Below are positions 1 through 62,233 of a stretch of DNA of 64,000 bases, in pieces. Made by a program: the position numbers and the translations under genes. Location: the NCBI GenBank assembly GCA_030765125.1, contig JAVCDD010000180.1, positions 7,033-71,032 on the forward strand, given 5' to 3'. The stretch is from Candidatus Hatepunaea meridiana. Lineage in GTDB: Bacteria; Electryoneota; AABM5-125-24; Hatepunaeales; Hatepunaeaceae. Within the stretch, counting starts at the first letter, position 1. Every line of letters starts with the position of its first letter. The notes beneath the pieces were generated by a model that did no database searches, had not been told where the DNA came from, and saw nothing but the letters and a program-made list of their open reading frames with translations.

Positions 1-3000
1 ATACGGCGCGGGTCGGGATCTTCATCCAGTATTATATCCCCGATATCCTCAATGATTTCAGGTGGATCGTTGACCGGATTGATCACCAACCGGAAGTCCA
101 GATCGGTTGAAGCACCCGGTTCGTCGGTGGCTCGAATGGTAATTTCTACGCCGTCCGGGATATTGTAATTCGGTTCAGGTTCGAAATGCAGTACATTGAA
201 CTGGTCGACCTCCATATTCAACTCTTCTGGAGCGTCGATGACCGAAAAGTTCATTTCGTCTTCTTCTATATCGTAGAACACTTCGTCGAGGTCAGCCACG
301 TCAACCCGGTCAGGGTCTTCGTCAATCCTTATATTTTCAATCTGTTCGACAATCCGCGGTGCATCGTTGATGGCGTTAACGACGACTTCGAAGACGTCTT
401 CCGCCGTTTCTTCACCATCTGAAGCGGTGATCGTAACATCGACGTTCCCGTTCCAATCCGCTTCAGGCTGGACATAGAGCCTGCCCTGTACAATGCGAAT
501 ACTAAGCCCTTCAGCGTCGGACTCCTGGAACTCAAGATCGTCATCATCATCCGGGTCAACGAAGTGATCGTTCAGATCGGCAATTAGCCTTTCACCGTCG
601 TCCTCGTCAAATTCCTGATCGGGGATTTCCTCTACTAATATGGGTGGTTGATTTACGTGACCGACGGTAATATCAACCGTTGCGCGGGTCCTGCGACCTC
701 CCTGGTCACTTACTTCGAAGATCGGGCTGTATTCACCTTCATCATCAAGATCGGTCTGCCAGTTGAATGTGCCCGTGTTATCACCATTATCAGTGAATTC
801 CGCGCCGCGGTCTTCAGTTCCGTCGTCAACCAGCATTAACAGTTCCAGTTCGTCACCTTCAAACTCGATGTCAAAATCGTCAGCGGTCAGAGTGAATTCG
901 ATTTCATCGCCCTCATCAACATTTACCTCATCCAGCGGGTCAACCCAGAAGGGAGGGTCATTGACAGGGGTTATGGTAACCAGGAATACATCGTCAATGC
1001 TGTCATCACGGCGCGGGGAAGAAGAATTTTGGATTTTGGATTTTGAATGTTGAATGTCAGTAGCGTAAGCATTCCCGCTTGCGGAAACCATACACGCTGT
1101 TCGTAGCGCCGACGTCTTAACGGCATTACCGGAATTATAAGATGGTCTGAATACCATTAAGGCTCTACCGCCTTGATCATCGTCTGCTGTTACGGTTACT
1201 TCGAGATCATCACCGTTGAAATTCTCCGGAGCTTCCAACAGCAGCATATTATCATCGTCAATCTCTGCCGTAAGAGGTTCATCCGCTTCAACAGAGAATG
1301 ACAGATCATCGTCATCCGGGTCCTCGAATACCTCATCCAATACTGCGACTTCAAACTGACCGAAGTCCTCGGGTACACGCATATCCGCAATCGGGCTGAC
1401 TACCCGAGGTGGCTGGTTGATGTTGTTAACGGTGATATTAACCGTCAGATCATCGGTTCCATCATCTGTGTCGGTTACGCGGAAGACAGGGGTATAAGGA
1501 TCATCACGACTATCATCAGCGCCAGGCGTCCAGGTAAATTCTGCCGTGCCGTCGTCGTTATCAGCAAATTCCCATCCGTCAGGCAATTCACCTTCGTCGA
1601 ATACCGACCAGACCAGATCGTTGACATCATCTTCAACATCACTTGCCTGGAAGACGATATGGAGTTCTTCCTCTTCAGTAACATCAACGTCAATCTCATC
1701 GCCTAAAGCCTCGCCCTGATCGTCTTCGATAACAGGATCATCGTTAATCGAAAGGACGTTGATCGTGAATTCATCGGTAATTGATTCGTCTCTTCGAGGA
1801 GGAGAAGAATGTAGGATGAATTTTGAATGTTGAATGTTGAATGTTGAATGTTGATTATTGATTCGGGCGGCGATCATAATTCGCTGTCCCCAACTGTCCT
1901 CGGCTTCGATAATCACCTCTGATTCACCGAAGTAGTTCGGATCTGGTTCTACGGACAGGATGTGTGTTTCAATATCAATATTAGCGTTCAATTCTTGAAT
2001 CTCATTAGCTTCGATGATGTCAAACTCTAAATCATCACCATCCGGATCATCGAAAACATCGTCCAGGTCGGCGATTTCGATTACACCGGCGTCCTCGTCA
2101 ATATCTATATCGTCAATCGGATTTACAACTTCCGGAGGACGGTTGAAGTTGCCGACGGCGATGGTGATCTCCAGATCGACATCTTCCTCACCATCGGATA
2201 CCGTGAAGATTGGCGTATATTCACCTTCGTCTTCGAACGTTGTCTGCCAGGTAAAGCTTGCCGTACCGTGCTCGTTATCATTGAGTTCCGCTTCATCCGG
2301 CAGACCACCGCGGTCGCTGAATTCGATGGTCAGATCGTTGTTGTTGTCCACGTCATCCTGGGCAATAAGTTCGAAACGGGCAACGTTTCCTTCGTTTACC
2401 TCGTAACGATTGTCTTCAGGATAGCTCTCCCAGACCGGTGGATCGTTGAGCGGATTAACGGTAACAGTGAATTCATCGGATACGGTCTCGTCGCGGCGGG
2501 GTGGAGGGTTGAAATAGGGGGACAGTATACCTATTTCTGTTAATGGACCATCGTTCTTTTCAAGAGCACTCATGAAATAGGTATACTGTCCCCCTATTTC
2601 TGCGAGGCTTCGAGATGGCTGCACATTAACCATCAAACGCCCACCGTTCTCCTCATCATCTGCTGTCACGGTTACGATTAGATTCTCACCGTAAAAATCA
2701 TCCTCCGGTCTCAACGTCAGGATATTCTCATCGCTGATTTCCAGATTCAGTTCTTCAGTACCTTCCACCGAGAAAGTAAGATCGACGCCGTTCGGATCTA
2801 CGAAAATTTCATCCAGGTCGGCTACCTCCAACAGACCGGAATCTTCGTCGATTTCGACATCGTCAATCGGATTTACAACTTCGGGAGGATCGTTGATGGC
2901 TATGCCGGCGATATCAACCGTCAATTCAGCGTTGTCAGGATCGTTGGAGCTAATTGTTATTACGTCGCGGAACACACCGGCGTCTTCGGGAGCGAAGGTT

Positions 3001-6000: not shown

Positions 6001-9000
6001 GCGCGATCTGGCGTGTCAAGTTCACCGAGTTCTTCAATATTTTCGGGGTCGGATATATCGAGGATATGTAAACCACTCTCGTTGTCTGTAACGTAGGCGA
6101 TAGATTCGATGATGAATATTTCCGTTGCAATGTCGGGAGTATCGTAGCGTCCCGTTTCTTCGATATTCTCAGGATCGGAAATGTTCAATACTAACAATCC
6201 ATTAGCGCCGTCTGCTACGTAAGCATATTCACCAATGACTGTTACAGCGTGCGCCAATCCCTCTGTATTAAAGGATCCAACCTCGCTCGGATGCGCCCTG
6301 TTTGATATATTGACCACCCTCAGACCGCTCTCCATATCTGCTATATAAGCGATTGTGCCGACAACAGCGACATCAACGGCATTTCCGGGAGTGTCGAATT
6401 CACCTGTTGGATTGGGGTCTCCGGGATCAAAGACGTCTATGACTTGTAAGCCGTTTTCATCGGCGGCTACGAAAGCGTAGTCTTCCGACACAACAACGCT
6501 CATTGCGGTTCCGATATCACCGGCTGATGCGACCTCGTCAGGGTTCTCAGGGTCGGTTATGTCTATTACTCTTAAGCCTCCGTCACCATCTGCAACGAAA
6601 GCGAAATCTTCTATGACGGTAACTCCGTAAGCTGTTCCATCGGTGTCATAGTTTCCTACTTCGTCGATGTCCGGTTCGCGTCCGGCGCCGGATAACTGAA
6701 CAATTATTTCACCGTTTTCGGGATCGTTTGAGGTGATGGTTAATGTGCCTTCGAAATCACCTGCTTCTTGGGGGGCGAAGGTGACAGACAGGAATGTCTG
6801 TCCTACCGGGTCGATGACAATGGGGTCTTCGAAGCTGCTACTGAACCAGACTCCTTCAACGGTTACATCGGATACGGTTAAAGGACCGTCGCCTTCGTTG
6901 CTGATGGTGAGTCTTTGATCAATACTGCGTTCTATCTGTATAGCGCCGAAGTCCAGTTGTTCCGGTTCAACGACTATTATTGGAACTACGCCTGTGCCGG
7001 TTAATGCTATGGCTATTACCTCTTCATCCGGATCATCAGAGGATATGGTCAGTGTTGCTTCAAAATCACCTGATTCCTGTGGAGCGAAAGTAACGGTCAG
7101 ATCGAATTCCTCATCCGGTTGGATGACGAACGCTTCGTCGAAGTCGCTGCTGAAGTAATTCCCTTCAATTGCGATGTCAGAGACGTTCAATTCAACCAAA
7201 CCATCATTGCTTAATGTAAGCGTCAGATCAGCGCTCTCGCCTCCTGACACCTGACCGAAGTTCAATTCATTCGGATTAACCATTAGATTCGGTTCTTGCG
7301 CCTGGTGGTAGTAGAGTGCGCCCATATCGGCGCGGGTTTCGTCCGGGTCTTGATCGGCGTTGGGATCACCGGTGTCGACGCAGGGGCTGTTGCGCAAGAT
7401 TTGGTAGTCGCTGTTGTCTGCATCGGCAAATAAGGGATCTTCCTCGATGTTGCCTGCACCGGCATAGCTGCCTTCAATATCTGAGAAGGTGATCGTCATA
7501 CCGTTCTGCAGATCAGGCGGTTCGTTGCCCCATATAATAGAATTAATCACCTGAGCACTCGCTCCACCGCCGCCGATGCCAATAGCAGCGTTGTCGCTGT
7601 TTGCAGTGTTACCGGAGATGGTTACGTTGACGAGAATGGGAATGGAACCGCTGGTGGCGTATAGCCCACCGCCGCGTCCACTGGCGACGTTGTCGACTAT
7701 AGCGAGGTGATCGAGCGTGGGCGTGGTCTGATCGCCGTTGCAATAGATACCACCGCCCCAATCGGTGTCGGCATTTCTAACGGTAAAGCCGGTCAGGATT
7801 GCCGCTTCCGTTTCACCGTTGCGGAAGACGACCGTACTCCTGCCGTTTGCGCCGCCGTCAATTATGGTCGATTCGATGTATTCAGCCTCACCTGTGGTCA
7901 GGTACAGACTGCCGACGGTTACGTCTATGCCGTTGAAGTTGACGTTCTCTTCGTAGGTGCCGGGTTGAACCAGCACGATGTCACCGGCTATGGATACGTC
8001 GATTGCTTCCTGGATGGTTTCATAGTCATCCGGCACGTTGACGGTGCGCGCTTCGGTCTCTATACCGGTGCCACTCAAATCAACGGTTACTTCTCCTTCA
8101 TCGGGATCGTCGCTGGTTATGGTCAATACAGCTTGCAGATCGCCTGTTTCACCGGGCAAGAAGGTTACATTAACTTCAGAACTTTCGTCCGGTTGGATGA
8201 CAATGGGGTTTAAAAAGTCGCTGCTGTAGTAGGCGCCTGCAATCGTTATATCGGAGACGGTCAGTTCGATATTGCCTTCGTTAGAGATAGTTATGGCTAA
8301 CTGGGACGACCTGCCCATTTCAGTTTCAGGGAAGGCGAGGGCTTCGGGATCAACGGCGATGTCAGGTGTAAGTCCCGATCCGGTTAAGGGGATGTTTATC
8401 TCACCCTCATCGGGATCATTGGACGTTATGGTCAGCGTTCCTTCGAAATCACCGGTTTCATTCGGCTGGAAGTTTACGTTGAACTGCCGGTTGCCGTCCG
8501 GTGCAATTACGAATTCCTCCTCAAAGTCCGAGGAGAAATATTGACCTTCGATGGAAATATCCGAAACAGTAAGATCGGAATTTCCATCATTGGTGATTAT
8601 CAATGGCAGAGTGGATATTTGTCCCACCAGGCAGTCGCCAAATGGGAAGGAATTGCGGTTAACGGTAATATCCGGCGCCACGCCTGAACCGCTTAGCGCA
8701 ACCTCAACCTCCGGATCGTCCGGATCATCGGAAAGTATAGTCAGGGTTGCATCAAAATCGTTCACCTCTTCCGGCGCGAACGTAACGGTCAGCTCAAAGT
8801 CCTCAAACGGTTGGATGACGATTTCTTCATCAAAATCGGTCAGGAATGTCTGCGCTCCCCGGATTGAAATATCCGAAATGGTCAATTCCCAGTTGCCATC
8901 GTTGCTGATGGTTAACGTCAGGTCTTCAGTTTCACCGGTTACAACCTCACCGAAGTCGAACGCTTCGTCTGAAAGGGTGATTTCGGGGTATTGGACGAAG

Positions 9001-12000
9001 TCGGAGACGTCGAGGATTAATAAACCGTTATTCCCATCAGCCACATATGCATAGTTTCCTACAACAGAAACATCCCAAGAATGTTGAGTTCGGTGATTAC
9101 CAACCTCATCAGGATTCTCAGGATCTGAAACATCTATTAAACGTAGACTGCTTTGACCGGCGGGAGTAAAGCATGCAACATAAGCTATGTTACCTACAAC
9201 AGTTAAGTCTCGAGCATAATCACGTGTATCTTGAGATCCAACTTCGACCAATTCATCTGGGTTAGAAATATCAATAATTCTTAGACCTTCTGTATAATCT
9301 GCTACATAAGCATAGTTTTCTATGACTGAAACACCCAGAGCTGCACCTGGAGTATCATATATTCCTAATCCTCCAAGGTTACGAGCATTAATCAATATTA
9401 AACCTGTCTGATTATCTGCAACATAAGCGATCTCATCAACTATCACAACATCCCGTGCGATTTGCGGCGTGTTAAATGAACCGGTTAATCTTGGATCTTC
9501 AGGGTCGGATATGTTAATAGCTTGCAAACCGCTACGTCCATCAGCTATGTAAACATAATCTCCGCTGACCGCAATACCTTCTGCCCAATCAGGAGTATCA
9601 CAGCTTCCTATTTCATCAGGTTCCTCAGGATTAGACACATCAATAATACGGAGACCGCTCTCGTAATCCGCTACAAATGCCAAATTATCCGAAACCACCA
9701 CATCATAGGCATTTCCTGGAGTTTCACAGAAACCTATCTCATCTGGATTCTCTGGATCAGAGATATCTATTATCCGTAGACCCCCTGCATTATCTGCTAA
9801 ATAGGCAATATCCCCGACAATATCTATACCAAATGTTACACCATTAGTATTATAATGCCCCACTTCCGGTATCGCCGGTTCCCTGCCGACTCCCACCAAT
9901 GCAACATCCACTTCCCCATTATCCGGGTCGTCGGAAGTTATGGTCAGTGTCCCCTCGAAGTTGTTCTCGCTGTCCGGTGTGAACCGAACGGGTAGTTCGA
10001 AGGTGGCGTCCGGTTCGACGATCATCTCTTCATCGATATCCTCAAAGATACTGCTGAAGTTGTCGTGTCCGATTGATATATCGGATATGGTCAGGTCGCC
10101 GTCACCGTCGTTGCCGATGGTCAGGATGAGCTCGACGGTCTGGTCGATTACGACCTCGCCGAAGTTCAGCGATTCGGGATCATGCGTGAGGATAGGCGCA
10201 ACGCCCAGTCCGCTTAAGTTCACATCCAATTCTCCATTATCCGGATCATCGGATGTTATGGTCAGCGTTGCCTGCAGGTCTCCGGTCGCGTCAGGTGCAA
10301 AGGTTACGGTCAGTTCATAGGGCTCGTCCGGTTCGATGACGACCTCACCGTCGAAGTCGCTGGTGAAGTAGTCACCCGCGATTGATATGTCGGAAACGGT
10401 CAGAGGCGCGCGTCCCTCGTTGTTATCAATAGTGAGAATCATATCTGTCTCGTGACCGACTACCGTGTTGGGGAAGACAAGCTCTGCCGGTGTTACAGCG
10501 ATAACGGGAGCCGCTTCCTGGAAGAAGTAGAGGGCGCCCATATCGGCGCGCGTGGTGTCGGGGTCTTCGGGAGCGTCGGGATCGGCTGCGTCAACGCAGG
10601 GGCTGTCCTCAGTGATGTAGAAGTCGTTGTTGTCTGTGTCAGCGAAAATGGGATCGGAATCAAGGTTGTCTACTCCAGCGTAACCGCCCTCGATGTCGCA
10701 GTATGCAACGGTCAATCCGTTCGGCATTCCGGCGGGTTGGTTGCCCCAGACGATTGAGTTTCCGATAGTGGCTGAGGCGCCTGCAAAGATATTAATAGCG
10801 CCGACCTCTTCGTTTGCCGTGTTGCCGTAAAGGGTTATAAAGTTCAGATCAGGATTGGCGTTGTTGGTGGCGTAGATACCTCCACCGCGGCTGGTGGAGC
10901 TGTTTCCGTAGATTACCAGATGATCCAGCGTCGGGCTCGCGTCGTTGATATAGAGCCCACCGCCGAAGTCGGTTGAGCCGTTGCGAATGGTGAAGCCTAT
11001 CAGTTCCGCTTCGTCTGTCTCACCGTTGCGGAAGGCGACTACACTACGCCCGTTGTCGCCGCCGTCGATTATGGTTGAGGCTATGTCATCCGGATCGTCG
11101 CTCTCGATATATTGGCTGGCAACCGTGATGTTTTTGCCGCGGAAATTGATGTTCTCATTATAAACACCGGGGTCGACCAGAACGCGGTCGATGTCAATGG
11201 CTTCGTCAATGGCTGCCTGGATGGTCTCGAAGTCATCAGGGACGTTGTATTCGCGGGGCTGTGCTTCGATGCCGGTTCCTGACAGGGCAACAGCAAGCTC
11301 ACCGTTGTCGGGATCGTCTGAGGTGATGGTCATAGTGGCTTCGTGGTCACCGGTCTCGGTGGGGGAGAAAACGACAGACAGGAATGTCTGTCCTACCGGT
11401 TCTATGATTATTTCGTCTGTAAAGTCGCTGCTGAAATAATCCCCTTCAAAGGTTACGTCTGTAATGTACAGGTCTGTATCGCCGGTGTTGCTGATGGTTA
11501 TGACAGACAAGGATGTCCGTCCCACCTCAGTATCAGGGAATCCAATGGCTTCGGGGTCTATGGTGATTTCGGGGTATTCTACGATGCCGCCGGTAACTTC
11601 GGAACAGTTGAAGATGTAAAGCCCTTCATCCTCATCGGTGATATAGGCGTAATTGCCGGATACATACAAGCCGATAGCGTAGCCTGGAGTGTCGTGGAAA
11701 CCAATCTCTTCCGGTTCGGCAGGGTTTGAAACGTCTATCAAGCGCAATCCCTCGTCACCATCGGCAACATAAGCGAAATCATGCGCGACAAAGACGCTTT
11801 CGGATGAGCCGGGAGTGTTTACAAAGCCGACCTCTTCCGGTTCTGCGGGGTTTGATACGTTTATAATGCGAAGTCCACTGCCTGAAGCGGCGACATAAGC
11901 ATAGTCACCGGCTGCGAAAACTCCATAGGCACGACTCGGCATTTCGAGATTGCTCACTTCATCCGGATTTTCCGGGTCGGACACGTCGATTATGCGCAGT

Positions 12001-19927: not shown

Positions 19928-20002
19928 AACAGCATTATAATTTAACTCTAAACCAGGTTCAAAGTCAAGTCTTTTCATAAGATGAAAATAGAAACTGAAA
20001 TC

Positions 20003-20078
20003 GAGAGACAGTATGCTTGTTTTTACCCATTTCCTTAATAAAGTTCCAGATTGTAATAAAATCAGGTATACTGTCCCC
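20003..20078. repeat. Family A hairpin element (diverged copy)
   Basis: The arms are gagagacagtatgcttgttttt (20003-20024) and aaaatcaggtatactgtcccc (20058-20078), imperfectly complementary. They share the GACAGTAT core with the copies at 2511 and 23858. Confidence 0.55.
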
Positions 20079-20317
20079 GATTCCTTGATTCCTGTGAATA
20101 GATTTACCAATAGGTGTGAATCAGATTCGCATTTGAAAGGATAAAAACGTGTTCAGTTTAAACTGTTAGAGGATATGCTTTGAGTTACCAGTAGGAAGAA
20201 ATGATAACTTGAAACAGATAATAATAACCTAATAAGATGTGCAAAAACCTTGCCGGTTTATTCTATCACTGCGTTGAAAGGAAGCGTCGGGAAGGGCAGA
20301 CATTCTTGTCCGTCACG

Positions 20318-23857: not shown

Positions 23858-23944
23858 AAATAGGGGGACAGTATACCTATTTCATAAATACTCTTTGAAA
23901 TAACGACGGTCAATAAAGAAATAGGTATACTGTCCCCCTATTTC
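23858..23944. repeat. Family A palindromic element, intergenic copy
   Basis: The arms aaatagggggacagtatacctatttc (23858-23883) and gaaataggtatactgtccccctatttc (23918-23944) sit in the 131-bp spacer between the Mrp-NifX stop and the OYE start. Confidence 0.8.
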
Positions 23945-34425: not shown

Positions 34426-34616
34426 TGATGCTTTTTCCCTCACTCAAGCGCTATAATTTTTAGATGACATAACCTGAAACGATCTCACCGATCATTTTAC
34501 CATCCCAGTTCACCTCAATAACTCCTCCGACTTCGAAATTGAAGTTGAAATATTTCCAATTAGCTGAACATCATTAATGATTCTGTTGATTAAGTCAACA
34601 ATTTCAGAATTACCCT

Positions 34617-34714: not shown

Positions 34715-34848
34715 AAGTATTTCAACAGGATCATTAATATAAGAGATTAAATATTTGGAATTGGGACATAACTCCTCTTGAAAGTGAAATGGATTTTACT
34801 ATATTAGGATAACTAATTCACATTTCCAAACACAAAAGGAGTTACAAA

Positions 34849-35202: not shown

Positions 35203-35251
35203 TTCACCTCACAGGCAGGGTCGCCTGCGGCTCCTGTATTTCGGCTAACAT

Positions 35252-35372
35252 TGTCGGACAAGAGTGTCCAACCTACTAAAACATCGGTAGGATAGGCATT
35301 CCTGTCTGTCGTACACCTCTTAATTATAGGCATCGTTTGACAGACAAGAATGTCTGTCCTACCCTTCGTGTG
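35252..35372. repeat. REP cluster: one type-2 REP plus an inverted pair of type-1 REPs (REPIN/BIME-like), all with GTAG heads
   Basis: 35252-35276 is tgtcggacaagagtgtccaacctac, the reverse complement of GTAGGTTGGACACTCTTGTCCGACA. 35287-35310 is GTAGGATAGGCATTCCTGTCTGTC. 35349-35372 is gacagacaagaatgtctgtcctac, an inverted copy. Confidence 0.75.
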
Positions 35373-44600: not shown

Positions 44601-47600
44601 ACCATTCGACTTCGATGTCCGACGCGGCGGTGAGATGAAGCTGGATATTTATCACCACTCCTTCTTCCTCATTGGGATCGTTGGAAAGGAAGGTCAGATC
44701 AGCTTCGTAATCACCCTCAGCTAAACCAGCGCCGTCAAGTGTAACGGTAACGATCATTGCATCGTCACCTGCAACGGTTCCTTCGACAGGATCGTACGCC
44801 AGCCAGTTTGTTTCAGCGATACCGTCATCGACGATCTGGAATTCCTGTACGACCCGGACGCCGAGCCAGAGGTTTTCACCGTCATGACCGGGGTCACTCC
44901 ACTGGTCGTTGCCGTTATTCCAGGCGGTGTTCTGGACTACTTCAACAAACGACCAATCATCTGTGTCAATCGAGACCTCCATAAGGCGGCTCTGAGTATT
45001 TATCCAGAGCTGACCGTCGGGATGCTCGTCAACCCAGCAGATGCCGCGGCTGAACTGGTTAACAAGAGGACCCTGTCGCCAGTTGATCGTGGCGACACGT
45101 TCCACATTATCGTTAACCGGTCTGACTACGTGCATTCCCCAGGCGCCTGTGCCTTCTATAGCGATAAGCACACCGTTCTCGGGGGAAGCAGCCAGGGCTG
45201 TAACCGAATTGAAGCCCATTGGCAGGTTGCCAAGGTTTTCTCCCTCAGCGTCATGCCTGCCGACAAAGGCGCCCGACCAGGCGACATTGTAGACAACGCC
45301 GTCCATCCAGGCAATGTCCATCACGTTTTGACCCTGGGGTTGATAGGCAATTTCCTCAGTGAAGTTTTCGTAATCACCGTCCCATGATATTGCGGCGATC
45401 CAGTTTGGACTGTAAGTAGCTACCCACATCCATTCGTTGTCAGTGTCGAAATTGGAAGAGTGCTTGTAACCGGCAGCTCCACGAGCCCACCTGTAGGTTG
45501 CTATCACGTCCATGAAATCATCACGACGCGGTCCTTCGGCATTCCTTGTGCTGCGCAGTGAGCGAGCGTTTGCATCGCGATCCGGTTCTGCGACAATCTC
45601 ATGCTCGACAGTGAAGCGCAGATCGGCTTCGCCTTCGTTGGCTACCGTTAGTTCAACATCGACAAGACCACCGGTATACAGATCTTCTTCGATAGAACCG
45701 GGATTAATAGCAATTTCCGGAGGCACGCCTGCATCAGCCAGCAGCGCTATTTCAAAATCCTCTTCATTTGGATCGTTCCAGACGATTACCATCGCCTCTT
45801 CAAACGCATCCCCGCTTGAAGCATCGAACGTAAATGTAAATTCATCGCTCTCGCCGGGTTCTAATGAAGCATCCACCGGATCTGATGTGAAGAGATCGTT
45901 TTCACAGTAGATATCTTCAATTTCCAGATCGTCTGTGCCTGTGTTTTCGATTTCAACGAGAACATCATACGTTTGGTCAACGAAAAGATTAAGATAAGCG
46001 AGATTCCAATCTATTACCGCTACTTCCGGATCTTCATCCCAGCCAATATCCGCAGACCATGTAGCTCCAAGCGCAGGCGCTCCGGTTACGTGCATTATTA
46101 TGTTAAATACTAATTCTTCATTGTCGGGATCGTTGGTAGTGAAAGTCATATCAGCTTCATAGTCACCAGTGAATAAACCTGAGCAATCAAGCGTAACGGT
46201 AACTTCTGCCTGATCGTCAGCTTCAATGGTTCCTTCATCCGGTTCATAAGCGAGCCACTTTGCGCCACCCATCTCGGTCAGGTATAACAGGATTTCAGAG
46301 GCCATGGAGCCCCACTCACCACCGTTACGAGCGTAATTGAACCAGCAGTGACCTGTCGGGTGACCGACGGTCAGAACAGTACCCTTACCGAAGCCGTAAG
46401 CGACAGCGCCAGGTACGTCCTGATTCTGCTTAGTGGCAATAACCTGGTACCATTCAAGAGTGCCGTCCTCTACCTTTTGAACGAACTGGTTTTCAAGGTA
46501 ACCGGAATGCAGCCATGAGCCGCCTTCAATGATTTCGCCCTCTTCCCAGTAGTTCGGTTCGGATCTGTGACAGATCTCGGCAAACAGACTGTAGTTGTCA
46601 TCATTCGGGTCAGGGCTGACAACCAATGTGCCGTTACTGGTTCCTCCGGCTGAATTGTTGACAATATCTCCGGGACCATGCATGGGGCTGTTGGCGTCAG
46701 CAGTTTCATAGTAACATGCGCCACCACCGTCAACATACTCTTCCAATCTTTCAAAGTTGTTCTGGTAATTCTGGCTGTTCATTGAACTGCGAGCAGCTAC
46801 TACGATGACATCATACTCGCTGAAGTCAACATTGTCCCAGTCGCCTGCTTGACGATAGGAATGATAGTTGTCGTTGTTCAGGAGCGGATCCTGACGCATA
46901 CCATCGTCCACCCAGCCCCATGTGCTGTTGATCTGGAAGGCGGCAAACAACAATCCGTCGAGTTCGTTATCTTCGAGTGGGTCACGACGGGGACCATCAG
47001 CGCGACGTGCTGTACTGCGCAGGGTGCGCGAGGCATTATCGCGATCGTCATCACCCGGTTCAGCGATGATCTCAGACGCAATACTCCAATTCAGATCCGC
47101 TCCACCGGTGTTGGAAAGTGTCAACACGTGTTCTTCAATGTCGCCGGTGAAGTAATCTTCCTCAACTGAACCGGGAGCTAACTCAAATGCAGGAGGTGTG
47201 AATGCCTGCGCAACAAGATTTATTTCAATATCCGCAGGCTCATCAGCCGGATCATTCCAAACGATTACCATAACCGCTTCGTGTTGATCCGTATCCTCGG
47301 AATTGAAGATAAAGTTAACTTCAAGGCTCGAATGTCCAATAATCACTGCATCGGCAGGATCACAGGTGAAGCGTTGGTTCTCACAGGTGATACTTTCTAT
47401 TTCGGTGTCGTCTGTTCCCGGATTAATCAATTCGATTGTGACGGGGTAGTCGTGCCCTGCATAAAGTTCTTCATGAGCGGCGTTAAAATCGACTACAGAA
47501 TCACCATTATCCGGATCGAAGCCGTGATCCTCAGACCATGCAACCTCAAGGGCAGGCACGCCTGTTACGTGCATTATAACACTAATTACGACTTCATCAT

Positions 47601-56567: not shown

Positions 56568-56599
56568 GTGGTGTCGTGGTGTCGTGGTGTTGTGGTGTC
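56568..56599. repeat. Octanucleotide tandem repeat (GTGGTGTY)4 just after the 1830-aa gene stop
   Basis: Units are gtggtgtc (56568-56575), gtggtgtc (56576-56583), gtggtgtt (56584-56591) and gtggtgtc (56592-56599). Confidence 0.85.
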
Positions 56600-56610
56600 G
56601 GGATTTAAGG

Positions 56611-56660
56611 GTAGGACAGACATTCCTATCTGTCGGTAGGTTGGACACTCCTGTCCGACA
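56611..56660 (+). repeat. Two tandem REPs with GTAG heads (type 1 then type 2)
   Basis: GTAGGACAGACATTCCTATCTGTC (56611-56634) is followed by GTAGGTTGGACACTCCTGTCCGACA (56636-56660). Confidence 0.8.
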
Positions 56661-56884
56661 ATCATCGTGTCAGACAATCCCGAAGTTTCGGGATGACCTA
56701 CTGGAAAGTTTTAATCAAGATGGACACTTTTTAGAAACCAGCAGGCGTTTTGCTTGCTGGTTTTTTTATTAGCTTCTGTTTTATCTGATAAAAATGTCTT
56801 CGCAACTCTGTTTAATTCTTGGTAAGCAGGAGTTTTTTATATTATATTATAGAAACAGACGTTCAAGAACAACCGGAGAATAAA

Positions 56885-59800
56885 ATGTCCAAAAAAACCA
56901 TTCTTTTATTAGCATTTATAATCTTTTTAACATTAACCCTTTTCAATCAGGGGTATACAACCACCCGCCCAACGGGATTGTCAACCGGATCAAACGAATT
57001 CGCTCAAATCTTATCCCAATCCGGTACGGATCTACATATAAGATTCACACCACCGGCATCGCATAAACGGCTTCTTGATGAAATCACAGCATCGCAAAAT
57101 CAGAACATCACGAATCTTGCCTACACCTATTGGTTGGTCGTTCCGCCAATGGATCATGTTGAACTCGAAATAGTTGAGCAGAATGGACGGCGGTTGTCAA
57201 TCTCGGACAGGGATGCACCTGATCCGTACATAGATAGAGAAGATGTAAAAATTCAGACAGACAAGTATTATCCTCCAGCTCCTGTAATAATGGGCAAACC
57301 GCAGATTATGCGCGGTATCAGGATGGTTCCGATAACAGTTTTTCCAATACAGTTACTACAGGAATCATCACAGGCAGGGACGCCTGTGTCACCCGATGGT
57401 ATACAGAAATCACAGCATCACAACATCACAACATCACAACATCAAATTGCTGTTGAAAACAGTCAGATTGAAATAAAACTCAATTTCACTAATGACGAAG
57501 CAATAAATCCTTTATTGAATTCTGCCCCTCGACAGATGTCGCACAGCTTTGCCAATATAATCAATTCCTACACACTCAATCCCCCACCCCACTTGATCCC
57601 TCGACGGGATCTGGCAGCGACGGAACTCGCCAAATCGCTGATCCTGTACCCTCAAGTCTTTGATGATAACGAGGATGCCGCGGAAGCTATGATATGGCTC
57701 AATCATCTGGTTCATTGGAAGCGCCGACAGGGTTACTATGTTGAATTGGCAGCAGTTGAAGTCGACCGTGAAAACGAAGATAACAGCGATGATATAAAGG
57801 ACTTGATCGGTGACTACTATGAGGATGGTTTTGAGTTTGTAACCTTGATTGGCAACGAAGATTACGATGAGCTTAATACCGTTGAAGGAAACAATACCGA
57901 ACTCTATTTTCCATCCTGGATGTTTATCATCCGCGTTGTTCAGGATACTCTCGGGAATGACGTTATCATCCGGGGTTATCGCGAGCACGAGTATTCGCTG
58001 CTCGAAGGTGACGACGAGATGCCTGACATTATCATCAGCCGTATCAAAGTTCCCACTTACGACAGGCTTGTCGGTGCGCTCCGGAAAACTATCGCATATC
58101 AAATTGACCCGTATCTGGATAATGATAATGACTGGTATTCACATTCTCTGGTTACGATTGAAGAAGACTCGATTGGCATTATTGTCCTTTCCCCTGAATA
58201 TTTATCGCTGGCATATTGGGAACAAGCTCGGCTCACACAAAAAGGATATAATGATATTGATGTTATCCTCGGTCCTGTAGGATCATTTGAAGATGGCGTT
58301 TACGTTGGAGATGACATTAAAGAAGTACTTGAAGAAGGCGTTTCATTAGCATTAGGAGAGGGCTGGCTGTATGATTGTGTTGCACATCGTAACTGGGAAC
58401 AATGGGAAGATTACGCTGAAACCGGAAGGATGCACCCATTTGTCATCGCTAATCTATCCTATTACGAGCAACAGGTAATGTATCCGTTCTATGCTTCCGG
58501 AACTTCAGACAACCTGAATGGTCCTATCGCGGGATTGGGCATCTACGATACAGGAGGACGCTCAGTATATATGACTCATATAATCGGAAGCGCGCTTATG
58601 GCGATGACAATGAACGATGTTTATACACCCGGACATCTTCAGATTATTACAAAGATGTATCTGTCAGGTCTCATTGACAGTGTAAGAATCTACGAAGAGG
58701 ACCCGGAAGAAGCTTATATTAGCGGGATTATCACAGCCTTACGCCTCCATTGGACATTAGGAGATCCGACGGTTGACGTCTTTTCAGAATTTCCCGTTCA
58801 GATAACCGTTGATCATCCCGAATCATATCTAATTGGTGAAACATCAATAATACTAAATGTAATAGATGATAATGATAATAACGTTGCCGATGCTAACGTT
58901 TGCATTTATCAGGAAGATGGCATTCATTATGTAACCCAAACAAACGATGCAGGTATGGTAGTCTTCACCATCCCAGGAGATGGGCTCGAAGAAGGTGAAC
59001 TACTGATAACCGCCAGCAAACACAACTGCATACCATATCTTCCTCCCGATCCTGTACCTGTGAGAACGGGTAATATTAATCTTGTGCTTGAAGATGCTGG
59101 TTTCGACGATGAAGACAACGGCGACGATAATGATGATCACTTTCGGAACGGCGAAGAGGTCGTGCTGATTCTTACGCTGACTAACACCGGCGATCAGGAT
59201 GCGGAAGGCGTCTCTGCAACTCTTAGCTGCGACAGCGAATGGCTCAGTTTCTCACGGGAAGGAATTGAATTCGGGGATATAGATTCGGATGAAACGACTA
59301 CCTATCAAGGTGATCAGGTTATAATGACCCTTGATATGGACTGCCCTGATCGTTCTCTTCTACGAATCCAGGCAGACATTAATATTGATGAGGAAACAAT
59401 TACATCCGTTGCTTTTGAAATCACTACCTACGGACCGAAGCTCTTTACCGCACCACATCTGATTGATGTTGACGAGGGTTTTGTTGGGGGCGGAGAGAAT
59501 GCTTCTTTTTCACCGACTATTCAAAATCTGGGCAGGACAGGAATATCAACATTCACTGCTGAATTAGTAAGTCTCAACGAACTTATCACCGTTACTGAAG
59601 CTGAACGTAACTATGGTGCTATTGAGCCTTGGCTGGATCCTGAAGAGGATCCAGACGAACAATCGCCGAATGAACCGTTCATTATTGATTTTGACGAACT
59701 TTTCGTAGCTGGAAATGAAGCACGATTCGAACTGCGAATATCTGCTGAGGATGACTATGATACAACAATGATAATCTCCAAGTTCGTTCCCAGTCGTGAA

Positions 59801-62233
59801 GCCGGTGAACCGATAGGACCGGATGATTACGGTTATATATGCTTTGACAGTCAGGACGAAGACTGGTTTGAAAGTCCTTTCTATTACTGGTATGAAATTA
59901 ATAGTGATGTTGAAGATCACGAATTCCAGGGCACAAAGCTGGATTTTCAACCTGATGCCAATGCGCGCTGGAATGATGCTGAAGTTGTCGAACTCCCATT
60001 CACATTCCAATACTATGGTGATGATTTCGATAATATAACCATTTGCACCAACGGCTTCATTACCATTGGAGATGTCGACACCTTCTTCTATTCACCAAAT
60101 AACCACCAGATACCCGACTATGCTGCACCCGATGGTCAGTTATGTATTCTTTGGCAGGATATTTCCTGCGTGCGACCGCTATACACCGGAGTTTATTACT
60201 ATTATATAGAAGAGGAAGGTGTCTTTGTCGTGGAATGGAGCAATGTTCAAATATGGAGTTCAGATGGTGTCCATAACGTTACTTTCCAAATACTTCTATT
60301 CGATCCTGAATTATATCCAACTGCAACGGGGGATGGTGAGATCGTCTTCCAATACCAGCAATTCCAGGCAATAGAAGGCGCCGATTACCCTCGCTACTCC
60401 ACAATCGGTATTCGAAACCTCGATGGCAGTGGAGGTCTTCAGTACGCTTTCTGGAACCATTATGTCGATCAGGCAAATCCCATTGAGAATGAGTTTGCGA
60501 TTAAGTTTACTACAGCAACCGAGAATGAATATGGATCCGTAGTGGGTCGTGTAGTTAGACTTGAAGATGAGAATGCTGGATTAGAGAGTGTTAGAATAAG
60601 CAGTCTGCGCTTCAGTTCGGTTTTCAGCGATGAGGATGGTTATTTCCGAATCAGAAACCTGCGAACCAGCCGTTTCAATGATGTAAGAGTCTTAAAAGAG
60701 GGCTTCAATACTCGTTTCATTGAGTTTGACATTGCACCCGATGAAGAAACAAACGTCGGGAATGTTACTCTCGCCCACCCGGAATTTTCAGTCGAAACAA
60801 GCCCTGAAGAAGCAGATACACTCTACCTTCGACCTGACGGAACACAACTGCATCTTCGTGTGAATATTGAGAACGATGGCAATGGCGCTTTAGATTATCA
60901 AATCGGTATAGTCAATCACGACGGCAGTGATCTCGATTACGATAACGTTCAAAATATAGGTCTACCCCAAGTGCTTAACGAACCGAGGTGTTACGGCGCT
61001 GTTTATGTGGATTCCCTCTTTTACATCCCAGGCACTAACAGGCACATTAACAACAATGAAGGCGGTCATCTTATTTACGTCATCAATCAGGCAGGAGAGT
61101 TTGTTCGCAGCTTCGAACAACCAATGGCGGAAATCGATTCCAGTGCGAACGGTTTTAATAATCTTGCCTGGGATGGTGAGTATTTATGGGGAGTTGTTAA
61201 AGACTATACCGGTGAGGAAAGAGGACACCTATTTCGCTTTGATCTTGATGGTAATGAAAACCTTCGCATTGTCAACCCGTTTGACCGTTACATGGGGCTG
61301 TCAATAGCAATCAATCCGGAAACCGGTAATCTCTACCTTGCAGATCAAGGTACCGGAGTGGTTGAATTCGAGATCGATAGCTGCAACAACCTTAACGAGG
61401 TCAATCGCTTTTCCATTCACCGTCCCTCATTGGAAGTGCGTATTGTTGGAATTGGCTGGAACGAATATGACCCGGACGGTATGAAGTTGTATTTACTCGA
61501 AAAACAGATGCCGGTTGAAGGTGAATCAATACCAATGCTTCTGAAGATGAACCATGAGACCGGGGAATGGAGGGAAGCTAACCAACTTTACTACACGAGA
61601 GATGCTCCTGCACATCGCGGAATGGCGATTATTCACAACCTTAGCTATGAACGTTCTATGATTGCTATTGTAGAAGACTTTGGCGGTGGTCGTATGGATA
61701 CAGCACGTGACAGCCTGCGCATTTATGAGATCGGTCCAAATTTATCCTTCCTGACAGATGGAGGTATTAGTAACAGGTTGGGAACAATTAATGCAGGAGA
61801 GCAAGGTCAAGCCGGTTTGTTAATGGATGTGAATGGCTGGACTGAGTATAGTTCCGTTTCATTTGGCATCAGGATTGACCACAACGCTGCTGAAGAGGCT
61901 GCTATTATTCCAATTGTATTAAATGTGGATCCAACCACATTCGGATCGAAGAACAATGCTTCTAAACCAACCGATTTCGGGATAACATCCGTTTATCCGA
62001 ACCCGTTCAATTCCGTTGTCAGGATTGAATTCTACATAGACGCCGCTATGCCGACAGCGCTGAAGATATTCGATCTGACAGGTCGGGAAGTAAAAACGCT
62101 ATACGAAGGATTGCCAGAGGTTGGCTATCATCAATTGATATGGGATGGAGCTAAGACTGCTTCCGGCGTGTATTTCTTAAAACTTGAATCGGAAGGACGA
62201 GTGAAGACGGTGAAGATGGCAATTGTGAAGTAA
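56885..62233 (+). CDS. Second gingipain-like (C25 family) paralogue with T9SS C-terminal sorting domain
   Basis: The track ORF starts at a TTG (56819). I prefer the ATG at 56885, which gives MSKKTILLLAFIIFLTLTLFNQG (signal-like). The domain order matches the 1830-aa neighbour: propeptide-like, C25-like (FVTLIGNED..), DxYGYICFD domain, CarboxypepD_reg-like, propeller-like. The CTD, VYPNPFNSVVRIEF...GVYFLKL...KMAIVK, spans 61982-62230. Confidence 0.8.
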   Translation: MSKKTILLLAFIIFLTLTLFNQGYTTTRPTGLSTGSNEFAQILSQSGTDLHIRFTPPASHKRLLDEITASQNQNITNLAYTYWLVVPPMDHVELEIVEQNGRRLSISDRDAPDPYIDREDVKIQTDKYYPPAPVIMGKPQIMRGIRMVPITVFPIQLLQESSQAGTPVSPDGIQKSQHHNITTSQHQIAVENSQIEIKLNFTNDEAINPLLNSAPRQMSHSFANIINSYTLNPPPHLIPRRDLAATELAKSLILYPQVFDDNEDAAEAMIWLNHLVHWKRRQGYYVELAAVEVDRENEDNSDDIKDLIGDYYEDGFEFVTLIGNEDYDELNTVEGNNTELYFPSWMFIIRVVQDTLGNDVIIRGYREHEYSLLEGDDEMPDIIISRIKVPTYDRLVGALRKTIAYQIDPYLDNDNDWYSHSLVTIEEDSIGIIVLSPEYLSLAYWEQARLTQKGYNDIDVILGPVGSFEDGVYVGDDIKEVLEEGVSLALGEGWLYDCVAHRNWEQWEDYAETGRMHPFVIANLSYYEQQVMYPFYASGTSDNLNGPIAGLGIYDTGGRSVYMTHIIGSALMAMTMNDVYTPGHLQIITKMYLSGLIDSVRIYEEDPEEAYISGIITALRLHWTLGDPTVDVFSEFPVQITVDHPESYLIGETSIILNVIDDNDNNVADANVCIYQEDGIHYVTQTNDAGMVVFTIPGDGLEEGELLITASKHNCIPYLPPDPVPVRTGNINLVLEDAGFDDEDNGDDNDDHFRNGEEVVLILTLTNTGDQDAEGVSATLSCDSEWLSFSREGIEFGDIDSDETTTYQGDQVIMTLDMDCPDRSLLRIQADINIDEETITSVAFEITTYGPKLFTAPHLIDVDEGFVGGGENASFSPTIQNLGRTGISTFTAELVSLNELITVTEAERNYGAIEPWLDPEEDPDEQSPNEPFIIDFDELFVAGNEARFELRISAEDDYDTTMIISKFVPSREAGEPIGPDDYGYICFDSQDEDWFESPFYYWYEINSDVEDHEFQGTKLDFQPDANARWNDAEVVELPFTFQYYGDDFDNITICTNGFITIGDVDTFFYSPNNHQIPDYAAPDGQLCILWQDISCVRPLYTGVYYYYIEEEGVFVVEWSNVQIWSSDGVHNVTFQILLFDPELYPTATGDGEIVFQYQQFQAIEGADYPRYSTIGIRNLDGSGGLQYAFWNHYVDQANPIENEFAIKFTTATENEYGSVVGRVVRLEDENAGLESVRISSLRFSSVFSDEDGYFRIRNLRTSRFNDVRVLKEGFNTRFIEFDIAPDEETNVGNVTLAHPEFSVETSPEEADTLYLRPDGTQLHLRVNIENDGNGALDYQIGIVNHDGSDLDYDNVQNIGLPQVLNEPRCYGAVYVDSLFYIPGTNRHINNNEGGHLIYVINQAGEFVRSFEQPMAEIDSSANGFNNLAWDGEYLWGVVKDYTGEERGHLFRFDLDGNENLRIVNPFDRYMGLSIAINPETGNLYLADQGTGVVEFEIDSCNNLNEVNRFSIHRPSLEVRIVGIGWNEYDPDGMKLYLLEKQMPVEGESIPMLLKMNHETGEWREANQLYYTRDAPAHRGMAIIHNLSYERSMIAIVEDFGGGRMDTARDSLRIYEIGPNLSFLTDGGISNRLGTINAGEQGQAGLLMDVNGWTEYSSVSFGIRIDHNAAEEAAIIPIVLNVDPTTFGSKNNASKPTDFGITSVYPNPFNSVVRIEFYIDAAMPTALKIFDLTGREVKTLYEGLPEVGYHQLIWDGAKTASGVYFLKLESEGRVKTVKMAIVK
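57369..57448 (+). repeat. In-frame insertion in the second C25 paralogue: CACAGGC-AGGGAC-GCCTGTG hairpin plus (ATCACAAC) octamer array
   Basis: The hairpin spans 57369-57388, and its core caggcagggacg recurs intergenically at 35425-35436 (and as caggcagggtcg at 35212). The octamers are atcacagc (57409-57416), atcacaac x3 (57417-57440) and atcaaatt (57441-57448). The region codes SSQAGTPVSPDGIQKSQHHNITTSQH, about 25 aa absent from the aligned position of the 1830-aa paralogue. Confidence 0.7.

What the first reader, a model, noticed from the sequence alone, without database searches (positions are those of the whole stretch)
1..62233. Integrating hypothesis: intergenic REP/MITE palindromes and 7-8 bp microsatellites are translated in frame at a conserved domain-junction slot of giant T9SS cargo genes
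Three of the giant genes (the ORF at 1-19862, the 4817-aa gene and the second C25 paralogue) contain in-frame copies of element families that otherwise fill the intergenic spacers of this window.

Observed in-frame copies:
- A family A 90-bp palindrome at 2511-2600 whose arms are identical to those at 23858-23944.
- A GTCATTCCC..GGGAATCC-type remnant at 48486-48515.
- A GTAG-headed REP 27-mer at 6783 and 11373.
- A CAGGCAGGGACG hairpin plus octamer array at 57369-57448.
- Heptamer arrays at 1026 and 1817.

Four of these (2511, 1817, 1026, 48486) occupy the same position: a variable slot between an SR(T/S)L-type motif and a PRRD motif at a module boundary.

The established precedent is the Rickettsia palindromic elements, which insert in frame into protein-coding genes. 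I know of no description of this in T9SS cargo, or of a dedicated landing slot.

My inference is that the slot is a tolerated surface loop or linker. It may act as a landing pad that drives module shuffling, length variation or on/off switching of these adhesin-like proteins.
Basis: partly seen in the sequence, partly recalled or inferred. Interest (0 to 1): 0.88.

Follow-up and report, generated by a model that had tools for sequence, protein, structure and literature searches.

The report
REP palindromes translated inside giant genes
Short palindromic DNA repeats that normally sit between genes (the REP/REPIN kind, moved by a small tyrosine transposase) are read in frame inside several giant secreted-protein genes of this bacterium, mostly in one floppy loop that tolerates them; this is real, but in-frame REP insertions have been described in other bacteria.

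Summary
The in-frame copies exist. A 90-bp palindrome with perfect 27-nt arms (2511-2600) is translated as 30 codons in the >6,600-codon ORF and matches the intergenic copy at 23858-23943. A GTAG-headed REP is in frame at 6783 and 11373, and I found another at 1060. Weaker matches sit at 48488 and 57368. The heptamer and octamer arrays are real but match no intergenic array.

The 90-bp element is a REPIN-type doublet. Its arm occurs on more than 120 metagenome contigs (33-71% GC), and in 12 fetched loci it lies beside a Y1/IS200-like (RAYT/TIRYT) transposase gene, flanking it on both sides in at least six.

In G1 the "slot" is not a domain junction. It is a disordered loop (pLDDT 45-50) between the last two strands of a Big_9/cadherin-like domain, it ends in a conserved PRRD, and its length varies among paralogues and homologues. 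Three palindrome families occupy such slots.

Two REP copies lie in a beta-strand of Ig-like domains instead. They replace 27 nt with no length change, in two non-sister paralogues.

Intragenic in-frame REPs, and their placement in flexible loops, were described by Di Nocera et al. 2013 and in the Rickettsia RPE work. Tolerance explains the enrichment, and targeting is not shown. Verdict: new member of a known kind, moderate interest.

The parts
3..19862 (-). G1: giant ORF of more than 6,620 codons. The C-terminus lies outside the window. It carries HYDIN/ASH-type Ig-like domains, LVIVD repeats and C-terminal Big_9/cadherin-like modules.
   Evidence: Open frame; Pfam.
2511..2600 (-). In-frame REPIN-type palindrome (family A, 'palA'): 27-nt perfect arms and a 36-nt loop, 30 codons.
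   Evidence: RNA hairpin -49.8 kcal/mol, z -8.3.
2490..2654 (-). G1 slot 1: the expanded loop EENGGRLMVNVQPSRSLA-[palA]-NPP-PRRD, between strands F and G of a Big_9-like domain.
   Evidence: Alignment A1; AlphaFold2 pLDDT 45-50 for the loop; coordinates.
1788..1895 (-). G1 slot 2, holding the heptamer array 1817-1854 (TGAATGT x5.4) and ending in PRRD.
1005..1178 (-). G1 slot 3, holding the heptamer array 1024-1055 and a GTAG REP, and ending in PRRD.
1060..1084 (+). GTAG REP (GTAG CGTAAGC ATTCCC GCTTGCG G), antisense to the ORF and translated as VSASGNAYAT. It sits next to the heptamer array, the same layout as intergenic 56568-56635.
   Evidence: Strict signature: 7 hits against 0 in 300 shuffles.
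6783..6809 (-). GTAG REP in frame (PVGQTFLSV), replacing 27 nt of an Ig-like domain strand with no length change.
11373..11399 (-). Second identical GTAG REP in frame, at the homologous position of a non-sister Ig-like domain.
11501..11526 (-). Degenerate REP-like stretch (88% over 26 nt; EVGRTSLSV) in the first strand of the same domain.
   Evidence: E 0.002. It may partly reflect a native VGxTS motif.
35641..50094 (-). G2: 4,817-aa T9SS cargo protein with eight ERDNAsRTLRS-x6/7-GPRRD linkers.
48488..48515 (-). Family B (TTGTCATTCCC...GGGAATCC) remnant in the one long G2 slot. The inserted codons SPLQGN are at 48493-48510.
   Evidence: The hairpin has decayed.
56819..62233 (+). Second C25 peptidase paralogue (T9SS CTD).
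57353..57448 (+). Segment containing a 22-aa insertion relative to the paralogue. It holds hairpin C (57368-57392, ACAGGCAGGGACGCCTGT) and the octamer array 57409-57444 (ATCACAAC x4.5).
23858..23943 (.). Intergenic palA REPIN, in inverted orientation relative to the coding copy.
19998..20085 (.). Degenerate palA doublet upstream of the G1 start.
   Evidence: 15-nt exact core.
34240..34380 (.). Degenerate palA arms enclosing other repeats (nested).
   Evidence: The same nesting is seen in L051.
35250..35366 (.). Cluster of intergenic GTAG REPs with two stem variants.
56568..56662 (+). Intergenic octamer array (GTGGTGTC x4) followed by a GTAG REP doublet.
34616..34715 (.). Intergenic family B palindrome (29-nt arms, 97% complementary).
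   Evidence: (I7).
35209..35227 (+). Intergenic hairpin C copy.

Best explanation
[quoted passage not shown] They lie mainly just downstream of genes and are of the kind mobilised in trans by Y1 HUH tyrosine transposases (RAYT/TIRYT). Some copies have entered the very long, internally repetitive T9SS cargo genes. The copies seen today are those that keep the frame, carry no stop codon and sit where the protein tolerates them.

Most lie in an old loop or linker of variable length that ends in a conserved PRRD. In G1 it is the disordered loop before the last strand of Big_9/cadherin-like domains, and in G2 it is the charged linker between modules. They are passenger peptides of the Rickettsia RPE / intragenic REP kind.

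A second mode is also present. The GTAG REP has overwritten 27 nt of a beta-strand at the same position in two non-sister Ig-like domains. Its translation (FLSVTF) keeps the inward-facing L-x-V-x-F pattern of the native ELTVTF.

Shown here: the sequence identities, the in-frame state, the transposase partner on other contigs, the loop and strand locations, and insertion relative to paralogues and homologues. Inferred: the mobilisation mechanism, and that selection rather than targeting explains the enrichment in slots.
For: - palA identity and frame.
- The palA arm 19-mer is on more than 120 metagenome contigs of 33-71% GC and in three Gammaproteobacteria MAGs. There are 54 inverted doublets among 155 elements.
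- In 12 fetched loci the arms lie beside a Y1 transposase gene, and in at least six of them the arms flank a 180-230-aa ORF on both sides. That ORF hits PF01797 (E 8e-13) and NCBIfam REP_Tyr_transpos at 75.9 bits.
- The arm fits the GGGGWSAS motif of TIRYT-associated TIRs.
- The same element is in frame in real genes elsewhere: twice in a TilS ORF (L023) and twice in an ORF that looks like a membrane protein (L114).
- GTAG REP family: 7 strict hits against 0 in 300 shuffles, with four covarying stems.
- The slot is an insertion within a domain: canonical paralogues and homologues have about 5 residues there; P0004 has a short filler and P0001 a different one. AlphaFold2 gives pLDDT 45-50 for the slot and 86-98 for the flanking strands.
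- G2 slot insert relative to seven paralogous slots and P0020.
- REP in a strand: gap-free alignment with 14 paralogues; predicted strand 57-64 at pLDDT 94-97; the two host domains are 59% identical outside the REP, and each has a closer REP-free paralogue.
- Precedent for intragenic REPs in loops.
Against: - No transposase gene lies in the window, and the rest of the genome could not be retrieved. The partner in this organism is therefore assumed.
- The nearest homologues are only 42-48% identical, so no true empty site was seen.
- Two identical REPs at the same site in non-sister domains are not explained by random insertion plus tolerance. This needs short-patch conversion or some site preference.
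- palA shows no target-site duplication, and its insertion chemistry is unknown.
- The matches at 48488 and 57368 are only marginally significant on their own.
Confidence: 0.7

Rival explanations
1. Dedicated landing pad: the SRxL...PRRD slot, or its DNA, is a preferred target for the transposase or for recombination. Insertions are then directed there and drive length variation and module shuffling.
For: - Four of about seven independent in-frame events fall in slots that make up roughly 2% of the coding DNA (my estimate).
- Three unrelated families are involved.
- The GTAG REP was written twice at one homologous site, which shows that some site preference or homology-guided process exists.
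Against: - Survival in a disordered loop gives the same enrichment without targeting.
- Seven of the eight G2 slots are empty and uniform in length.
- No shared target sequence or duplication flanks the inserts.
- On other contigs the same palA sits in unrelated genes and mostly between genes.
- The slots were defined after the inserts had been seen.
Confidence: 0.12
2. Exaptation: the in-frame repeats are kept for a function. The 7-nt arrays could act as slippage switches that frameshift the gene upstream of its secretion signal. The 27-bp mRNA hairpin could act as a processing or pausing signal.
For: - The array unit length is not a multiple of three and there are 5.4 near-perfect copies.
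- The hairpin is very stable (-49.8 kcal/mol).
- Both lie in the C-terminal part of a cargo gene whose sorting domain must be downstream.
Against: - No population data are available.
- Five copies is few for efficient slippage.
- The two arrays have diverged in unit and length, as neutral sequence would.
- No conservation in homologues.
Confidence: 0.1
3. Reverse direction for the GTAG REP: the hairpin arose in Ig-domain coding sequence. The VGxTxLSV motif read as GTAGGACAGAC...GTCTGTC happens to form a GTAG-tagged hairpin, which was then copied into intergenic DNA.
For: - A degenerate copy (11501) sits where VGxTS is a native motif, and a REP-free paralogue (8043) shares that motif.
- The hairpin can be generated by Q-T...L-S-V codons.
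Against: - At 6783 and 11373 the REP departs from the paralogue consensus PDxxxELTV.
- The family has four different stems with a conserved head and loop, which is typical of REP families and not of copies of one gene segment.
Confidence: 0.05
4. Assembly artefact: repeats caused chimeric joins, so the in-frame state is not real.
For: The window is probably from a metagenome assembly, and repeats are classic break points. No reads are available.
Against: - Both sides of palA belong to one Big_9 domain: strand F before it and strand G after it, in frame, modelled together at high confidence.
- The REP copies are colinear with 12 paralogues.
- A join between two paralogous slots would still require palA in a slot.
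Confidence: 0.03

Closest known systems
Intragenic GTAG/CGTC REPs (Di Nocera, De Gregorio & Rocco 2013, BMC Genomics 14:522; PMC3733652)
   Same: GTAG-tagged stem-loops, mostly extragenic and downstream of ORFs, with a minority wholly inside ORFs. Dimers encode 20-30 aa and some ORFs are hit twice. The authors suggest that inserts sit in flexible linkers or loops.
   Different: Here the hosts are giant T9SS cargo genes of an FCB-group bacterium, not the replication and repair genes reported there. Several families share one homologous loop. Two copies replace strand-coding DNA without adding length.
TIRtrons / TIRYT (TIR-associated tyrosine transposases) with GGGGWSAS TIRs (same paper)
   Same: palA arms contain GGGGACAG, which fits GGGGWSAS. 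They are partly self-complementary, occur as dimers and clusters, and flank a RAYT-like Y1 transposase on other contigs.
   Different: The 19-27-nt arm is conserved across contigs of 33-71% GC. I did not compare it with the published TIR sequences, because that figure is not held.
Rickettsia palindromic elements (RPEs; Ogata et al. 2000, cited in PMC3733652 and PMC10969869)
   Same: Palindromic repeats inserted in frame into ORFs that stay open, adding a peptide segment at tolerated positions.
   Different: The sequences are unrelated and the host is probably free-living. The RPE-1 elements described are about 150 bp, and their transposase partner is not established.
REPIN-RAYT systems (Bertels & Rainey; PMC8049555, PMC5581495)
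   Same: Inverted REP doublets as the repeated unit, linked to a Y1 transposase gene flanked by the same repeats.
   Different: Classical REPIN families are described as vertically inherited within a lineage (my recollection, not checked here). The palA arm crosses phyla, which looks more like an IS.
Simple-sequence contingency loci (phase-variable repeats in surface protein genes)
   Same: Short tandem units whose length is not a multiple of three, inside an ORF for a surface or secreted protein.
   Different: Only 4-5 copies are present and no length polymorphism was observed. The function was not tested.

Membership tests
REP/REPIN with RAYT-type Y1 transposase (for palA) | A short palindromic unit repeated many times, mostly extragenic. 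| tested here: met
   Two full and two degenerate copies in the window. More than 120 contigs elsewhere; only about 5 of 155 elements lie inside credible ORFs.
REP/REPIN with RAYT-type Y1 transposase (for palA) | Units occur as inverted doublets that can fold into one long hairpin. | tested here: met
   54 of 155 elements are +/- doublets. The window copy folds at -49.8 kcal/mol.
REP/REPIN with RAYT-type Y1 transposase (for palA) | The same repeats flank a Y1 HUH transposase gene. | tested here: met
   Arms 630-800 nt apart enclose an ORF with HVH and RYxxxNP motifs in L012, L015, L033, L034, L040 and L060. Pfam PF01797 E 8e-13. Homologues are present in 12 fetched loci. Met on other contigs only.
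REP/REPIN with RAYT-type Y1 transposase (for palA) | The partner transposase is present in the same genome. | not testable with these tools
   None in the 64-kb window. The genome was not retrievable.
REP/REPIN with RAYT-type Y1 transposase (for palA) | The transposase scores as RAYT with NCBI's curated model. | tested here: inconclusive
   NF047646 REP_Tyr_transpos scores 75.9 bits against a cut-off of 80.
GTAG-tagged REP (for the 27-mer and the 1060 hairpin) | A GTAG head followed by a stem-loop, in multiple copies with variable stems. | tested here: met
   GTAG-N7-AYTCYY-N7' gives 7 hits against 0 in 300 shuffles, with four stem variants. The looser scan gives 12 against 1.2.
GTAG-tagged REP (for the 27-mer and the 1060 hairpin) | An associated RAYT flanked by these REPs. 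| not testable with these tools
   No RAYT in the window.
Classical MITE (DDE-transposase derived) | Terminal inverted repeats plus a target-site duplication. | tested here: not met
   No direct repeat flanks either palA copy. The partner found is a Y1 transposase, not a DDE transposase.
Rickettsia palindromic elements | Sequence membership in an RPE family. | not tested
   No RPE sequences were compared. The resemblance is in behaviour only.
T9SS cargo | A C-terminal Por_Secre_tail sorting domain. | tested here: met
   PF18962 in G2, in both C25 proteins and in the 1113-aa and 1052-aa proteins. G1 cannot be tested because its C-terminus lies outside the window.
Phase-variable simple-sequence locus | Repeat-number polymorphism that shifts the frame. 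| not testable with these tools
   Only one sequence is available.
Known structured RNA family (Rfam) | A match at the gathering score. | tested here: not met
   No Rfam family matches anywhere in the window.

The most novel reading that the evidence does not exclude
The PRRD-terminated loop of these cargo proteins may be a recurrent acceptor for at least three unrelated palindromic repeat families. Separately, a GTAG REP may have been written twice, by microhomology-guided patch conversion (CCGG ... CTGTC), over the same beta-strand codons of non-sister Ig-like domains. On this reading, REP-type repeats actively diversify the surface proteins of this lineage, including possible frameshift switching through the 7-nt arrays that travel with them, and are not merely tolerated.
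Probability: 0.15. Interest if true: 0.7.

Novelty: new member of a known kind. Interest (0 to 1): 0.4.

Why it matters
This adds a clear case, outside Proteobacteria and Rickettsia, of REP/REPIN-type repeats being translated. It comes from a barely sampled FCB-group lineage: the nearest named relative is Ca. Hatepunaea meridiana, phylum Ca. Electryoneota.

It shows where in a protein such peptides survive. One location is a long disordered loop within a beta-sandwich domain. The other, unusually, is a beta-strand whose hydrophobic pattern the REP translation happens to preserve.

The 27-nt arm conserved across contigs of 33-71% GC, with its transposase, gives a tractable REPIN family for studying cross-phylum spread.

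For annotation, giant adhesin ORFs can contain selfish-DNA segments and strong mRNA hairpins, and these should not be read as native linkers.

Tried and rejected
- Exact-protein look-ups for a window protein and for P0001 found nothing on record.
- The genome-contig scan with the palA 21-mer did not find the window's genome, only three Gammaproteobacteria MAGs.
- The search for related loci in metagenomes with the G1 C-terminal region found no relative, so no close empty sites could be examined.
- palA is absent from plasmids and viral contigs.
- No paper holds the core sequence as text.
- Rfam gives no hit in the window.
- A protein-database search with translated palA peptides returned only 15 candidates and no significant hit. 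The frequency of in-frame copies therefore rests on the 124 fetched loci.
- I tested whether the SRTLRS codons are themselves a DNA element (small GCGCA/TGCGC hairpin). The protein is conserved as well, and the hairpin follows from the CGC and CTG codons, so I dropped the idea.
- I tested whether short tandem repeats generally flank palA arms: 8/208 against 11/744 in controls, a weak signal.
- I considered a LexA box, an NrdR box, an integron attC site and Tn7-like ends for palA from memory. I rejected them once the Y1 transposase was found between the arms.
- Several long open frames across palA in high-GC contigs (L056, L078) look like non-coding Arg-rich read-through and were not counted.
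Full report
**Layout**

The window holds a minus-strand open frame from 3 to 19904 (start at about 19862, C-terminus outside the window; called G1 here). It also holds a 4,817-aa minus-strand gene at 35641-50094 (G2) and two plus-strand genes of about 1,800 aa at 51070-56562 and 56819-62233. Pfam shows the following:
- G1 has many HYDIN/ASH-type Ig-like domains, LVIVD repeats and C-terminal Big_9/cadherin-like domains.
- G2 has Ig-like domains and a Por_Secre_tail.
- The two 1,800-aa proteins are C25 peptidases with Por_Secre_tail.

Two further T9SS cargo genes and several housekeeping genes lie between them. The best named relative of the G1 C-terminal region is Ca. Hatepunaea meridiana at 48% identity, which belongs to the FCB group, phylum Ca. 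Electryoneota.

**Check of the observation**

The 90-bp palindrome is exactly as described.
- Arms 2511-2537 and 2574-2600 are 27 nt and 100% complementary. The same arms occur at 23858-23943 between two genes.
- The two elements are 87.6% identical over 89 nt, loop included, in opposite orientation.
- I ran BLAST of all intergenic DNA (5.1 kb) against all coding DNA, with reversed intergenic sequence as control (control maximum 25.7 bits). This pair scores 98.7 bits.
- The coding copy is 30 codons with no stop and reads EIGGQYTYFMSALEKNDGPLTEIGILSPYF.

The other claimed copies, in the same BLAST test:
- The GTAG-headed REP at 6783-6809 and 11373-11399 scores 39-45 bits against copies at 35285, 35339 and 56610. 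A further degenerate copy turns up at 11501-11526 (33 bits).
- The matches at 57368-57386 (18/19 to 35209) and 48488-48503 (16/16 to 50922; 82% over 28 nt to 34623) reach 31.5 bits, with E 0.008 and 0.019. They are above the control, but not by much.
- TRF confirms the 7-nt arrays at 1024-1055 and 1817-1854 and the 8-nt array at 57409-57444.
- The heptamer unit has no counterpart in intergenic DNA. The two heptamer arrays share about 45 nt of flanking similarity, so they are paralogous copies of one event.

**What the 90-bp palindrome is**

- Its arm 21-mer is not found in any genome resembling the window. It is found in three Gammaproteobacteria MAGs, always as an inverted pair just after a stop codon.
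- Of 155 elements, 54 are inverted doublets and the rest are singlets or tandem-arm arrays.
- In L012, L015, L033, L034, L040 and L060 the arms lie 630-800 nt apart and enclose an ORF of 180-230 aa with HVH and RYxxxNP motifs. It matches Pfam Y1_Tnp (PF01797, E 8e-13 and 4e-11) and NCBIfam REP-associated tyrosine transposase at 75.9 bits, against a cut-off of 80.
- Homologues 31-71% identical to one another sit beside the arms in 12 of the 124 fetched loci. There is none in the window.
- Each arm is itself self-complementary at its ends (GAAATAGG...CCTATTTC). It contains GGGGACAG, which fits the GGGGWSAS motif that Di Nocera et al. report for the inverted repeats flanking RAYT-like "TIRYT" genes.

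The element is therefore a REPIN-type doublet of a Y1-transposase system.

**The GTAG family**

A strict signature was scanned: GTAG, a 7-bp stem, a loop AYTCYY, then the complementary stem. It occurs seven times in the window and never in 300 shuffles. The hits carry four different stems.
- Four hits are intergenic: 35276, 35362, 50422 and 56636.
- Two are the copies at 6783 and 11373.
- One is new. It lies at 1060-1084 on the plus strand, antisense to G1, inside the third slot and 4 nt from the heptamer array.

Intergenic 56568-56635 has the same layout, an octamer array followed by a GTAG REP.

**The slot**

G1:
- Aligning the five C-terminal G1 modules with homologues shows that canonical Big_9-like domains run "...vTVTAsDGe--s..F.vtVnpvNDaP", with about five residues between the last two strands.
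- Three G1 modules, Hatepunaea P0001 and P0004 carry an expansion there that ends in PRRD. The fillers are about 8 aa (P0004), about 26 aa (P0001) and 28-50 aa (window).
- AlphaFold2 on the palindrome-bearing module gives a confident sandwich (pLDDT 92-98), a stretch of about 50 residues at pLDDT 45-50 without secondary structure, and then the last strand at 86-91.
- In G1 the slot is therefore a disordered loop within a domain, not a domain junction.

G2:
- Eight linkers read ERDNAsRTLRS-x6/7-GPRRD.
- The one at 48466-48549 is six residues longer. The extra SPLQGN (48493-48510) is also missing in homologue P0020, which keeps GPRRDDLGD.
- The extra DNA coincides with the family B match, and its hairpin has decayed.

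C25 paralogue:
- The hairpin-plus-octamer segment corresponds to a 22-aa insertion relative to the first paralogue, within the propeptide region. It is not at a PRRD slot.

**How the copies are distributed**

I count seven independent in-frame events:
1. palA.
2. The REP at 1060.
3. The heptamer array (one event).
4. The family B remnant.
5. The REP at 6783.
6. The REP at 11373.
7. The hairpin C / octamer block.

Four of these fall in slots, which make up about 2% of coding DNA. A simple binomial puts this near 5e-6. That is my own rough, post hoc estimate. The enrichment is real within the window, but it is what purifying selection would produce. Seven of the eight G2 slots are empty. No common target sequence or duplication flanks the inserts. 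On other contigs the same element sits in unrelated genes: twice in a TilS ORF in L023 and twice in an ORF that looks like a membrane protein in L114.

**The strand copies**

The REP at 6783 and 11373 adds no length.
- In a gap-free alignment of 14 paralogous Ig-like domains, CCGGTAGGACAGACATTCCTGTCTGTC (PVGQTFLSV) occupies the columns of the consensus EPDxxxELTV.
- AlphaFold2 puts residues 57-64 (QTFLSVTF) in a strand at pLDDT 94-97.
- Outside the REP the two host domains are 59% identical at the DNA level. Each has a closer paralogue without the REP (65% and 62%).
- Twenty-seven identical bases are not explained by descent (0.59^27 is about 7e-7, my calculation).
- The REP edges share CCGG and CTGTC with native paralogue sequence, at the same spacing. 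This is compatible with short-patch conversion, which is an inference.
- The translation keeps the L-x-V-x-F pattern of the native strand, which would explain why it is tolerated.

I regard this as the least ordinary part of the finding.

**Comparison with what is known**

Di Nocera, De Gregorio and Rocco (2013; PMC3733652) report the following:
- GTAG and CGTC REPs lie inside ORFs in several species.
- Some ORFs are hit twice.
- RAYT-like genes can be flanked by long inverted repeats that form repeat families.

A 2024 review summarises in-frame MITE and RPE fusions (PMC10969869). The central phenomenon is therefore known. The new elements here are the lineage, the host genes (T9SS cargo), the repeated use of one homologous loop by three families, the colinear strand replacement, and the breadth of the palA arm across GC classes.

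**Limits**

- The genome could not be retrieved, so there is no genome-wide count, no cognate transposase and no true empty site.
- Contigs of metagenome Ga0075114 (L005, L051, L069, L076) share palA with its loop (85%), family B (77%) and the 50857-50950 element (86%). They probably come from a relative. All copies there are intergenic.
- Assembly chimeras cannot be excluded by reads. They are unlikely, because both sides of palA belong to one modelled domain and the REP copies are colinear with their paralogues.

**Verdict**

The thing is a set of REP/REPIN-type repeats translated in frame where the proteins tolerate them. It is a new member of a known kind. The interest score is 0.40.

Noticed in passing
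L001-L124 (e.g. L002 5588-5670, L004 825-930): The 19-27-nt palA arm is conserved on more than 120 contigs of 33-71% GC, including three Gammaproteobacteria MAGs, while the loop and the linked transposase (31-71% identity) vary. This breadth is unusual for a REP-type repeat.
   Followed up: partly
L035 3094-3260; L124 8342-8500; L017 1338-1465: Arms occur as tandem arrays with a 28-29-nt period in mirror arrangement (+++---), not only as simple doublets.
   Followed up: no
L023 2357-3601 (-); L114 100-1473 (-): Two in-frame palA doublets lie inside a TilS (tRNA-lysidine synthase) ORF (PF01171 and TilS_C hits). Two more lie inside an ORF that looks like a membrane protein, with only a weak, sub-threshold MFS_1 hit.
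   Followed up: partly
window 38071-48567 (eight G2 linkers) and 51070-62233: The Arg-rich linkers ERDNAsRTLRS-x6-GPRRD recur at G2 module boundaries, and two C25 (gingipain-family) peptidase genes lie next door. The linkers could be proteolytic processing sites. This is speculation and was not tested.
   Followed up: no
window 20772-20803, 21849-21908, 25736-25815, 50143-50225, 50665-50762, 50880-50915, 63787-63891: A further intergenic family has a conserved GAGTTCAGAGT-type flank (often as a 7-nt array) next to a small hairpin. The hairpin stem varies (GCGCGC, CCAACC, CCAAGC, CAGCC) and the loop is CTTCAG-like. No Rfam match.
   Followed up: no
window 62249-62544: A large composite palindrome lies between convergent genes. 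Its outer arms are 8-nt arrays (TAACAATA-like) and it encloses a 26-nt perfect inverted repeat (62321-62346 / 62420-62445).
   Followed up: no
window 34240-34380; L051 1756-1985: Repeats are nested. palA-like arms enclose other repeat families, and in L051 they enclose a complete family B palindrome.
   Followed up: no
window 34318-34345, 50857-50885; L066 356, L076 622: Another palindrome family (CTGTCAACCGCGGCGGGTTGACAG) is shared with contigs of other metagenomes.
   Followed up: no
L005, L051, L069, L076 (metagenome Ga0075114): These contigs (43-46% GC) share three of the window's repeat families at 77-86% identity. They probably come from a relative and would be the place to look for orthologous giant genes.
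   Followed up: partly
window 35592-35633: A perfect 42-nt palindrome (GTTTATGTTGCGTCAGGTGTTAAC / GTTAACACCTGACGCAACATAAAC) lies just downstream of the G2 stop. It looks like a terminator.
   Followed up: no
window 8837-8861: A possible further REP-like fragment (GCAGACATTCCTG, encoding GAQTFLT) sits in a third position of an Ig-like domain. It scores at the level of the BLAST control, so it may be chance.
   Followed up: no
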